Virus record (IMG/VR): IMGVR_UViG_2751185959_000005
Length of the DNA stretch: 8,696 nt
Direction: 5' to 3' (one strand)
Source: a virus
Lineage: Duplodnaviria; Heunggongvirae; Uroviricota; Caudoviricetes
This document shows positions 6,001 through 8,696 of the stretch, piece by piece. A program made the position numbers. The number at the start of each line of letters is the position of its first letter. The stretch's first letter is position 1.

Positions 6001-8696
6001 TTATAATAGCAATTGATGCAATCTTTAGAGAAATAGTCAAGAACAATATAGTGATTTTAATCATATCACTGTTATCGTTCATGTTGTCACAAACAGTGCT
6101 CAATCATAACCCATTACTAGATCCTCAATGGTTTTGGAACATAGACTCCGCTATGGCATACTGGTGGTTATTGCCTCTCGGTAGATGTATGTTTTTAGAA
6201 TTAACACGTGACAGGTTTTTTGGAAAATCTAAAATTGGTTTCATTGTCTTCTCAATTACCGCTATAATGAGTGCGTATCAACTACTTAACCAGAAACCTT
6301 TACTTTTTAAGATTATCTCAATATTCAATGCAGACATAATATCAAGTAGTTATATTCAAGCTATTAATACTATTATCACCACGGTAGGCTTGATAATCTT
6401 TAATATTTTCATAGCAAAAATAATTTGTGGAAATGACTTTATTGTAAGAGCTGGAAGAAATACTCTTAACATATGTGGAATGGAGTATATCACCAAATTA
6501 TTTATCCCTATGGCTTTAGCAATTATAGGCTTCAGCGTGACTATTCCAAATCCTATCTGCGCAATCATATATACCTGTATTTGTGTATATGTATCAGATA
6601 AAATTGGCCATTGGCTATCGAGGACAGTCGGTGGGCCATTTTTGATAAAATGATAAAAAGGCGCAATTAATTGCGCTTTTATAGATATATAGCGCATATT
6701 TATGCTCAGATTATACTGTTAAAATTAATGCGCAAATGTTACGGTTTTCTTTCCTAGCAACTGAAGGGAATGTTCGAAGTGCAAACATAAAATTACCCCT
6801 TCACTGAACAGATATTCAGTCGACCAACACATGAGAAAGAAATACACCAGATGAATTAAAATATCATATACTTATTAATCAAAGAAATAAAAGCATAAAC
6901 AGTAGGTGGTGACGCTGATAAACTGGCTATAAACAACCTGGAAGGTGATGAGCTATCGCAATATAATTTATTGGCGAATTATTTGAAGCCAATTGATAAC
7001 ACCAGTGCTCAAAAGACTCCCCCCGGTAACCATAAGTAGCTAATATCTAGTACAGTTTCGATATCTATTATCGTTACTGCGTCGATATAGTCTAAATAGC
7101 TGCACCTAATTCTGCCACACTTGTCGTTTACAGATGGGTAATGTGTTGCGTATGGGCAACAAAACTCAAGCCAGATATAACACAACCTAGCTGAGAACGC
7201 CTTCCTGATGCTTCGCCCAGCAAGGGCTGAGCGAAAGTGGAGCACTTTTCTGCGCAGCTATTTAGGACAGTATTGAGTCATATTGTTTATGTATGAGTTA
7301 AGTTTCGTAATATCAATTAAATAAAATAAGTTGAAATCATTGTAGAAGTGAGCATTATACCCAGGCTACCTGAACCTACTGAAAAACGAGTATTATTCCA
7401 ACAATTATCCTAGATTAACAAGTCTATTTATTTGGATGCATAGGCCACTCGGGTTTTACTACATTAACACGCATAAGCAGCACCCGATATTTTTTCCATG
7501 CCAGTAACAGTTTCGTTTCATCATCTGTTGCCATACCTAAATCAACCGCATCCTGAAGCGGAGCTATTACATTCGTTGCCTCTGCTATCAGTGCAGATTT
7601 CTTTTCATCATTTATTAAGGCTAATTGTTCTGGTGTTGGAGAAGGACGGTCAACAATGACAGGATGACCGTTCTCACCACAGGTAATCATTTTTGTTACA
7701 CTCTGTGCATTAATCAGTGTTTTCCACTCTGATTCCGAGATTTCCACTGCATCATCAGGAATATTGGTGCCGTGAAATTCAGTCGAATAAAATCCGTTTG
7801 TCGATGCAGAATAAAAATATGACATTTTGTTAATATCCCATTGCAATGTAATACGCATCAGCAGATGAACCGTATCCTGAACCGGGCGACACAGTAATAT
7901 TAAATCCAGTGTTCTGGACACTTGTCGCCGATACAGTCGGCTGCCCAGCCGCGCCAGTAACGTTCAATGTAACTACGACAGCAATTACTCTTGAGAACGT
8001 CATCGGGAACCTCATCCCGTATGTTGAAGATACATTCGGGGCACCATTCAACTGACCGCACTGTAAAATTAATCCAGACGGAAATTTTTGCGCAGCAGCC
8101 GTTACGGTATTAATTGACGCGAACAGGCTCATATCAGGTATCTGATTCGCCCCTGTACCTACATTCCTTTTAGCTGCTTCTCCCAAACCAAGGTTTTCGA
8201 GAGCCGTTTTCACCGTGCCATCCGATTTGATATCGCCAAACGGATTCTTGCGGCTTAACAGCAGCGCGCGAAGTGCGGTAAGCAACTGATCGTGCCGCCC
8301 CTTCTCCAGGCTGGCACCGGATGCCTCCACCACGCTGCAAAGCTCCTCCTGCAACATGTCAAAGTAGTCATCATCCAGATCGGTGGCAGGCGTGCCAGTC
8401 TGGGGGTTACCACGGGTAAAACCGTTCTTACCCGCGCCGAACTTATCCTTCTTCGCGGTTTTCGTGTCTATACGATGCATGGATTACTCTGAGGTGTACT
8501 GGCAATAGCGGACACTACCATTTGTTCTTTTTTTAAGCAGCCATCTGATGATATTTTTCCCTGAAGGCTGCCGGGGAGATATTCCCCAGACGAGAGTGAC
8601 GACGCTGACGATTGTAGAAAATCTCAATGTATTCCCGTATTACTGAGATGGCTTCATCCCGGTTATTAAAACGATAGTGGCTCAGGCTCTCATTTT

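What the first reader, a model, noticed from the sequence alone, without database searches (positions are those of the whole stretch)
6683..7423. About 740 bp of apparently non-coding DNA between the acyltransferase terminator and tfa
Seen: no convincing ORF; the region contains the degenerate tail-fiber-like frame at 6905-7039 and a strong imperfect hairpin at 7212-7235 (10-bp stem, 4-nt loop, no adjacent T-tract). Inference: likely the decayed remainder of the second variable tail-fiber cassette, and it could also contain a small RNA. This is the stretch of the window least explained by the annotated features.
Basis: partly seen in the sequence, partly recalled or inferred. Interest (0 to 1): 0.35.

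Follow-up and report, generated by a model that had tools for sequence, protein, structure and literature searches.

The report
Dead tfa genes plus IS630 MITE
The unexplained 740 bp gap in this Shigella SfII prophage remnant is decaying DNA, made of two broken tail-fibre-assembly genes and a 174-bp non-autonomous IS630-type transposon that contains the reported hairpin, so it is ordinary.

Summary
Window 6683-7423 has no credible ORF.

The gap resolves into known kinds of sequence.
- 6654-6683: terminator hairpin of the acyltransferase gene.
- 6709-7039 (+): a tail-fibre-assembly (tfa) pseudogene with two in-frame stops and one frameshift. Its repaired translation matches phage Tfa genes (tblastn E = 2e-7).
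- 7307-7009 (-): the last ~40 codons of a second tfa, converging on the first and overlapping it by 31 nt.
- 7092-7265: a 174-bp MITE that splits that second remnant. Its ends are the IS630 terminal inverted repeats.

Deleting the MITE and one TA restores LNTVLDYIDAVT, a motif found in ~200-aa Tfa ORFs on 63 viral contigs. The restored junction reads CTAG, the IS630 target.

The hairpin at 7212-7235 is internal to the MITE. It is only partly conserved among copies.

Diverged copies of the MITE sit at about 19 unrelated sites across Enterobacterales. One lies unannotated in E. coli K-12 CP4-57.

No Rfam family, no significant covariation and no sequence constraint support a small RNA. This is a new member of a known kind, of low interest.

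The parts
6654..6683 (+). Palindromic terminator hairpin just after the acyltransferase stop codon (stem about 6657-6680).
   Evidence: Annotated as a putative rho-independent terminator in SfII. Palindrome I10. Terminator-like site in the scan. dG -11.7 kcal/mol, z -3.6.
6709..7039 (+). tfa pseudogene corresponding to residues ~29-142 of a 146-aa Tfa. In-frame stops at 6805-6807 and 6832-6834, a +1 frameshift near 6899-6912, and the original stop at 7037-7039. The N-terminal ~28 codons are missing at the acyltransferase cassette border.
   Evidence: Local tblastn with vB_EcoM-720R4 Tfa, two collinear pieces, E 3.6e-8. Repaired 110-aa translation against 2.3 Gb of phage DNA: E 2e-7, 97% coverage, with all annotated hits being tfa genes. 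Pairwise BLASTP E 8e-15, 36% identity. The 46-aa frame alone hits only tfa C-termini. No Pfam hit.
7009..7091 (-). Distal part of the C-terminal remnant of a second tfa (DYIDAVTIIDIETVLDISYLWLPGGVF, stop at 7009-7011). It overlaps the 3' end of the plus-strand pseudogene by 31 nt.
   Evidence: The geometry matches L007, where two intact tfa genes converge and overlap by 29 nt.
7092..7265 (-). 174-bp IS630-family MITE. On the minus strand it reads IRL-like end to IRR-like end. TA duplications lie at 7093-7094 and 7263-7264 inside the split CTAG target. Imperfect ~31-nt terminal inverted repeats at 7092-7122 and 7235-7265.
   Evidence: Inverted repeat I3. Sharp homology borders in unrelated contexts. 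Ends equal the published IS630 TIRs and the ends of a 1143-bp IS630-family copy at L067:2001-3143. The TIR hits the ends of 'IS630 family transposase' genes in E. coli. About 19 independent sites, all flanked CTA..TAG. Healed junction.
7212..7235 (.).
   Evidence: Folds as described. Across 23 MITE copies only 77.6% of cells pair, three of the ten pairs are unpaired in about half or more of the copies, and covariation does not clearly exceed the shuffles. A 4-bp GCCC/GGGC core pairs in 91% of cells.
7266..7307 (-). Proximal part of the second tfa remnant (RNLTHT*TI*LNTVL), upstream of the MITE on the minus strand.
   Evidence: Closest intact relatives read RNLTQAETSRLNTVLDYIDAVT.
7308..7423 (.). 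116-bp spacer between the intact tfa stop and the tfa remnant. Its origin was not identified.
   Evidence: No similarity in tblastn, Pfam, PHROGs or Rfam. It diverges 5.2% between two prophage lineages, like the rest of the gap.
7424..7858 (-). Intact tail-fibre assembly gene (SfII_24). It is context, not part of the gap.
   Evidence: Annotation. Pfam Caudo_TAP E 9e-26.

Best explanation
The gap is non-functional, decaying DNA left from an older tail-fibre-module arrangement, and a small transposon later inserted into it.

What is shown:
- The plus strand at 6709-7039 is a tfa pseudogene.
- The minus strand at 7307-7009 holds the last ~40 codons of a second tfa. It converges on the first and overlaps its 3' end.
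- A 174-bp element with IS630 terminal inverted repeats splits that second remnant at 7092-7265.
- Removing the element and one TA restores a conserved Tfa motif across a CTAG.

What is inferred:
- The MITE was inserted by an IS630-family transposase supplied in trans. The mechanism would be cut-and-paste into the TA of CTAG, with duplication of that TA.
- The alternative fibre segment and the start of the plus-strand tfa were replaced when the acyltransferase / ISSfl9 / gtr cassette was acquired.
- Nothing in the gap now has a function. The possible exception is the acyltransferase terminator at its left edge.

The hairpin at 7212-7235 is simply part of the MITE interior.
For: MITE identity:
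- Homology to the gap in 92 further E. coli records is confined to 7092-7265.
- Alignments from Escherichia, Shigella, Dickeya, Serratia, Trabulsiella, Intestinirhabdus, Brenneria, Kluyvera and metagenomes all start at CTAAATAGCTGCG and end at CGCAGCTATTTAG, with unrelated flanks.
- One-base indels inside the element rule out coding sequence.
- The family consensus ends are IS630's published TIRs: CTAAATAGCTGCGCGGAATA exactly, and TATTAGGCGCAGCTATTTAG with one difference (PMC11544213). The window copy itself departs from the published TIRs at two and four positions.
- A 1143-bp IS630-family copy has the same ends. The MITE shares only 22 and 29 terminal bases with it.

Insertion signature:
- The healed minus-strand sequence AAT ACT GTC CTA GAC TAT ATC GAC reads NTVLDYID.
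- 20 of 38 residues match L007 Tfa2, including 12 of 12 across the junction (E 1e-9).
- The same motif occurs in ~200-aa Tfa ORFs on 63 viral contigs, the best matching 23 of 40 residues.
- IS630's preference for the TA in CTAG is in the literature (Tenzen and Ohtsubo 1991, reference seen).

tfa pseudogene.

Decay: between the window and prophage L009 the gap differs by 4.6-6.0% with indels. The intact acyltransferase differs by 0.9% and tfa by 1.4%. The MITE, at 4.6%, is no better conserved than its flanks.
Against: - No DNA-level empty site was found for this or two other insertions. The target-duplication argument therefore rests on one protein-level reconstruction plus the invariant CTA..TAG flanks.
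- The minus-strand tfa remnant is too short to reach significance in the large phage database on its own.
- The plus-strand pseudogene has no Pfam hit.
- The 116-bp spacer at 7308-7423 is unexplained.
- Mobilisation by IS630 transposase is inferred, not shown.
- Copy number is low (median one per genome) and copies are 70-80% alike, so the family looks old rather than active.
Confidence: 0.87

Rival explanations
1. The 174-nt element, or its hairpin, is a functional structured small RNA. It could be one exapted from a MITE, transcribed from the minus strand with its 5' and 3' ends paired.
For: Both strands fold well beyond shuffles: z -4.1 on plus, z -4.7 on minus. In a 11-12 sequence alignment several helices keep pairing on the minus strand through G.U where the plus strand would have C.A. 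The element recurs in prophage and plasmid accessory regions.
Against: There is no Rfam hit in the gap at E <= 1. With 23 diverse copies the consensus structure falls to -20 kcal/mol with a covariation term of -0.9, and only the invariant TIR stem is solid. The hairpin's covariation does not clearly exceed the shuffles. There is no convincing promoter and no terminator tail. The element is no better conserved than neighbouring pseudogene DNA. The fold is explained by the terminal inverted repeats.
Confidence: 0.05
2. The element is the non-coding RNA of another mobile or defence system. Candidates are a retron msr-msd with a1/a2 end pairing, an IS200/IS605 TnpB omega-RNA, or an integron attC site.
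For: Its length (~174 nt) and paired ends resemble a retron ncRNA. One copy lies 420 bp downstream of a tnpB gene and next to an integrase fragment.
Against: No reverse transcriptase, tnpB or integron integrase is consistently adjacent. The neighbours differ at every site. The ends are IS630 TIRs, and a full IS630-family element carries them. Rfam, which holds these RNA classes, gives no hit.
Confidence: 0.02
3. The gap is the remnant of a tail-fibre (not tfa) variable cassette, and the frame at 6905-7039 is fibre-derived.
For: Location downstream of the fibre-tfa pair. A hix/gix-like crossover core (AAACCAAGGTTT) lies inside the fibre gene at 8185-8196. That suggests the module was once invertible.
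Against: Tail-fibre queries give only chance-level matches in the gap, E > 0.04 in a 770-nt database. Every annotated hit of the frame and of the repaired translation is a tfa gene. No fibre-like sequence survives. The position where the alternative fibre segment should lie is occupied by the acyltransferase gene.
Confidence: 0.05

Closest known systems
IS630 (Shigella sonnei, X05955) and IS630-family insertion sequences of E. coli
   Same: The family consensus carries the same 20-nt terminal inverted repeats, with 0-1 differences; the window copy itself is more diverged (2 and 4 differences). The flanks show the same CTA...TAG signature expected from insertion into the TA of CTAG.
   Different: The element is 174 bp instead of ~1150 bp, has no transposase gene, and has an interior unrelated to the IS. 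It is therefore non-autonomous.
RUP, the repeat unit of pneumococcus (a 107-bp MITE thought to be mobilised by IS630-Spn1)
   Same: A short non-autonomous element whose TIRs match an IS630-family IS and which inserts at TA (PMC2229807).
   Different: RUP is present at ~108 copies per genome. This element is usually single-copy and 70-80% diverged between sites, and it sits mostly in prophages, phage-plasmids and islands of Enterobacterales.
Invertible tail-fibre segments of Mu (G), P1 (C) and e14 (P) with paired S/U and S'/U' genes (from general knowledge), and the convergent tfa pair of phage vB_EcoM-720R4
   Same: Two tfa genes converge and overlap at their 3' ends downstream of the fibre gene: 31 nt here, 29 nt in L007. 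A hix/gix-like core lies in the fibre gene.
   Different: Both extra tfa copies are dead. No alternative fibre segment was found by the fibre queries, no second crossover site was found, and no invertase is apparent in the window's ORF list, though no invertase profile was searched. An additional intact tfa sits between the fibre gene and the remnants.
ERIC (MITEEc1) and Correia elements
   Same: Small TIR-bounded repeats that fold into hairpins when transcribed (PMC2229807; PMC11602168).
   Different: The termini and interior have different sequences. This element's TIRs can be assigned to a specific IS family.

Membership tests
IS630-family MITE | Short (under ~300 bp) with no coding capacity | tested here: met
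   171-187 bp in all copies. One-base indels between copies. No conserved ORF.
IS630-family MITE | Terminal inverted repeats matching those of an autonomous IS630-family element | tested here: met
   Consensus ends equal the published IS630 TIRs with 0-1 differences. 22 of 22 and 29 of 29-nt terminal matches at 95-97% to the 1143-bp copy L067:2001-3143. The TIR BLAST lands on the ends of IS630-family transposase genes.
IS630-family MITE | TA target-site duplication, with CTAG preferred for IS630 | tested here: met
   Removing the element and one TA restores NTVLDYIDAVT with CTAG at the junction. All ~19 independent sites read C-TA...TA-G with otherwise unrelated flanks. Caveat: no DNA-level empty site was found.
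IS630-family MITE | Copies at several unrelated genomic sites | tested here: met
   SfII-like prophages, P2-like prophages, P1-like phage-plasmids, an Rhs locus, K-12 CP4-57, and six other enterobacterial genera.
IS630-family MITE | Mobilisation in trans by the cognate transposase | not testable with these tools
   Needs a transposition assay.
Tail fibre assembly protein (Caudo_TAP / Tfa) gene, plus-strand copy 6709-7039 | Sequence similarity to Tfa proteins over most of the length | tested here: met
   tblastn E 2e-7 over 97% of the repaired translation, with all annotated hits being tfa genes. BLASTP E 8e-15.
Tail fibre assembly protein (Caudo_TAP / Tfa) gene, plus-strand copy 6709-7039 | Match to the Pfam Caudo_TAP profile | tested here: not met
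   0 families at E <= 10, while the intact neighbour scores 9e-26. This fits a badly decayed copy.
Tail fibre assembly protein (Caudo_TAP / Tfa) gene, plus-strand copy 6709-7039 | Intact reading frame | tested here: not met
   Two in-frame stops, one frameshift and a missing N-terminus. It is a pseudogene, not a gene.
Invertase-driven (Gin/Cin/Pin/Hin) invertible tail-fibre segment | An invertase gene and a pair of inverted crossover sites flanking alternative fibre-tfa cassettes | tested here: not met
   Only one crossover-like core, at 8185-8196. No invertase is apparent among the window's ORFs, although no resolvase/invertase profile search was run. No alternative fibre segment. At most a remnant.
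Known small RNA or cis-regulatory RNA family (Rfam 15) | Covariance-model match | tested here: not met
   No hit inside 6683-7423 at E <= 1.

The most novel reading that the evidence does not exclude
The 174-bp IS630-type MITE family may be more than debris. It would then be a phage- and plasmid-borne element still moved by IS630-family transposases between prophages, phage-plasmids and chromosomes of Enterobacterales. It, or its transcript, would be retained because it does something in accessory ('moron') regions, such as acting as a structured RNA or an insulator between convergent transcription units. The minus-strand G.U pattern in a subset of copies, and a second class with the same ends, the same 174-bp length and a different interior, are not excluded by my data.
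Probability: 0.06. Interest if true: 0.45.

Novelty: new member of a known kind. Interest (0 to 1): 0.2.

Why it matters
It closes an annotation hole in SfII-type serotype-converting prophages of Shigella flexneri and E. coli. Nothing hidden is encoded between the O-antigen acyltransferase and the tail genes.

It records how the O-antigen modification cassette sits on the wreck of an older tail-fibre specificity module.

It defines a low-copy IS630-derived MITE family, by consensus ends, length and target, that is currently unannotated even in E. coli K-12 CP4-57. Knowing it prevents these 174-bp structured repeats from being mistaken for small RNA genes or integrase fragments. It also gives a marker for past IS630-family activity in phage and plasmid accessory regions.

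Tried and rejected
- Rfam e-value scan of the whole window. There was no hit in the gap. The only strong hit (IS009, 52.9 bits, below the gathering score of 117) lies inside the intact tfa gene.
- Pfam and PHROGs on the ten longest stop-free frames and on the repaired pseudogene translations. Nothing useful came back.
- Retron ncRNA, TnpB omega-RNA and attC readings of the 174-nt element. I rejected these once the ends proved to be IS630 TIRs and the neighbours proved inconsistent.
- RNA consensus structure. It looked mildly promising with 11-12 sequences. With 23 sequences it collapsed. The hairpin-specific counts do not clearly exceed the shuffles.
- Empty-site searches. Junction queries for the K-12 and P2-like contexts found only filled sites. 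Exact and codon-degenerate patterns for the SfII context in viral contigs found none with CTAG.
- tblastn of the healed 42-aa remnant against all phages. It found only itself, because it is too short.
- Tail-fibre protein queries against the gap. These gave chance-level matches only.
- Literature search for a name for this MITE. I found none. The only paper printing these termini describes IS630 itself.

Full report
**Context.** The window is the O-antigen-modification end of an SfII-type prophage remnant of Shigella flexneri.
- It matches SfII (KC736978) at 99.6% over 687-8489 and a S. flexneri chromosome at 99.9%.
- Gene order is: truncated int, gtrA, gtrB, gtrII, an IS4-family transposase (ISSfl9), an acyltransferase (5604-6653, plus strand), the gap, then tfa (7424-7858, minus) and a gp53-like tail-fibre gene (7830-8480, minus).

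**Observation.**
- The gap has no credible ORF. The longest is 78 aa. No frame has a meaningful Pfam or PHROGs hit.
- The stop-free frame runs 6899-7036 with a stop at 7037-7039.
- The hairpin at 7212-7235 pairs at 9 of 10 positions with a 4-nt loop and no T-tract. dG is -13.3 kcal/mol on the plus strand and -16.3 on the minus strand, where the mismatch becomes G.U.
- The same 741 bp is present, unannotated, in SfII and ten E. coli prophages.

**The 174-bp element.** A sensitive blastn against 5,426 complete E. coli genomes found 92 further records. They match only window 7092-7265, at 69-77% identity, in unrelated places.
- One site is a phage-plasmid next to tnpB and an integrase fragment. 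Another is an Rhs/ISEc1 locus. A third is a P2-like prophage hotspot.
- Alignments have razor-sharp borders, CTAAATAGCTGCG...CGCAGCTATTTAG. Flanks are unrelated and there are one-base indels inside, so the element is non-coding and bounded by ~30-nt imperfect inverted repeats.
- Pattern scans found it in Dickeya, Serratia, Trabulsiella, Intestinirhabdus, Brenneria and Kluyvera, in 22 viral contigs and in 25 metagenome contigs.
- It also occurs on Salmonella, Citrobacter and Klebsiella plasmids.
- E. coli K-12 carries a copy between yfjH and intA of CP4-57, with no annotation.
- In all there are about 19 independent insertion sites. Each is flanked C-TA...TA-G with otherwise random neighbours.

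**Identity of the element.**
- A 40-nt query of the end hit more than 2,000 E. coli genomes, frequently at the ends of genes annotated 'IS630 family transposase'.
- One such copy (L067:2001-3143, 1143 bp) has perfect 20-nt terminal repeats with the same sequence.
- The only paper in the library that prints these termini gives them as the TIRs of IS630 itself: CTAAATAGCTGCGCGGAATA and TATTAAGCGCAGCTATTTAG (PMC11544213).
- The family consensus matches these with zero and one difference. The window copy itself is more diverged, with two and four differences. In the window the element lies in reverse orientation, with the IRL-like end at 7265.
- The MITE shares only 22 and 29 terminal bases with the full-length IS. 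Its interior is unrelated.
- This is the definition of a MITE of the IS630/Tc1-mariner kind. RUP of pneumococcus is the classic bacterial precedent (PMC2229807).

**What surrounds it.**
- Plus strand: 6709-6906 and 6914-7021 align collinearly with residues 29-133 of the 146-aa Tfa of phage vB_EcoM-720R4. The alignment is interrupted by two stops and one frameshift.
- The repaired 110-aa translation then finds Tfa genes in 36 phages in a 2.3-Gb database. The best is E 2e-7 over 97% of the query. Pairwise BLASTP gives E 8e-15.
- Minus strand: 7095-7024 aligns with the C-terminus of that phage's second, convergent Tfa, and 7307-7260 aligns with the residues just before it.
- The two minus-strand pieces are separated exactly by the MITE.

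**The insertion signature.**
- Joining the flanks and keeping one TA gives AAT ACT GTC CTA GAC TAT ATC GAC. This reads NTVLDYID, with CTAG at the junction.
- The healed 38 residues are 53% identical to Tfa2, and 12 of 12 across the junction are identical (E 1e-9).
- The motif NTVLDYIDAVT is the conserved C-terminal motif of a ~200-aa Tfa family found on 63 viral contigs. The best match is 23 of 40 residues, including RNLT upstream.
- IS630 is known to insert into the TA of CTAG and duplicate it (Tenzen and Ohtsubo 1991, cited in PMC2170065).
- This is the strongest evidence that the element arrived by IS630-type transposition into an already truncated tfa.

**Geometry of the remnants.** The two dead tfa copies converge and overlap by 31 nt. 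In vB_EcoM-720R4 the two intact tfa genes overlap by 29 nt.
- A hix/gix-like core (AAACCAAGGTTT) lies in the fibre gene at the E-N-L-G-L codons.
- Together these suggest the module descends from a Mu/P1/e14-style multi-cassette tail-fibre region. This comparison rests on general knowledge.
- Its alternative fibre segment and the start of the plus-strand tfa now lie where the acyltransferase cassette and its terminator are. This last step is inference.

**Is anything in the gap functional?**
- Rfam gives nothing in the gap.
- RNAalifold on 11-12 copies hinted at minus-strand G.U-preserving changes. With 23 diverse copies only the invariant TIR stem remains, and the covariation term is -0.9 kcal/mol.
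Its covariation does not clearly exceed the shuffles. A 4-bp GCCC/GGGC core is conserved in sequence.
- No terminator tail follows the hairpin, and promoter-like sites are near chance: 7 found against 4 +/- 2 expected.
- Between the window and a 95%-identical prophage the gap has diverged 4.6-6.0% with indels. The acyltransferase has diverged 0.9% and tfa 1.4%. The MITE (4.6%) is no better conserved than its flanks.
- All of this fits neutral decay.

**Gaps in the argument.**
- I found no DNA-level empty site.
- The minus-strand remnant is too short to be significant in a large database on its own.
- The pseudogene fails the Pfam profile.
- The 116 bp at 7308-7423 are unassigned.
- Mobilisation in trans is untested.
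- I could not check ISfinder, so the MITE may already have a name.

**Verdict.** The gap consists of a terminator, two tfa pseudogene remnants and an IS630-type MITE. This is a new member of a known kind. It is useful for annotation but biologically ordinary.

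Noticed in passing
window 1-211 and 8486-8696: The two ends of the window are a perfect 211-nt inverted repeat. It is the 3' end of an IS3-family orfB (IS600-like...RRHSRLGNISPAAFREKYHQMAA). The arrangement is real in a S. flexneri chromosome (L010). Inverted IS copies therefore bracket the SfII remnant, truncating int at 211/212 and everything upstream of the tail-fibre gene at 8486.
   Followed up: partly
window 8185-8196 (context 8178-8203): A perfect AAACCAAGGTTT core, resembling Hin/Gin/Cin/Pin crossover sites (resemblance recalled from memory), lies inside the tail-fibre gene at the E-N-L-G-L codons. 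It may be a relic of an invertible fibre segment. One match is not significant by itself (52 of 200 shuffles reach it), and no second site was found.
   Followed up: partly
window 7455-7631 (-): A sub-threshold Rfam hit to IS009 (52.9 bits against a gathering score of 117, E 4e-10) lies entirely inside the intact tfa coding sequence. It probably reflects tfa gene homology rather than an RNA.
   Followed up: no
L066:2001-2176 (E. coli K-12 MG1655, between yfjH and intA of CP4-57): K-12 carries a diverged 176-bp copy of the same IS630-type MITE. It is unannotated in RefSeq, and it is present in all 364 genomes that have this junction.
   Followed up: partly
L048:476-649, L054:1043-1216, L059:2348-2521 (metagenome contigs): A second MITE class has the same IS630 termini (near-perfect ~30-nt TIRs) and the same 174-bp length but a completely different interior.
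   Followed up: no
L019, L028, L031 (P2-like prophage copies of the MITE): Some copies carry 7- or 14-nt tandem expansions (CAAGGGC units) in the loop of the internal GCCC/GGGC hairpin, giving elements of 180 and 187 bp.
   Followed up: no
L008:4770-5932 (E. coli EC812A1): In one E. coli prophage an IS5-like ISKpn26 has inserted at the position equivalent to window ~7040, right at the stop of the plus-strand tfa pseudogene. This is another sign that the gap tolerates insertions.
   Followed up: no
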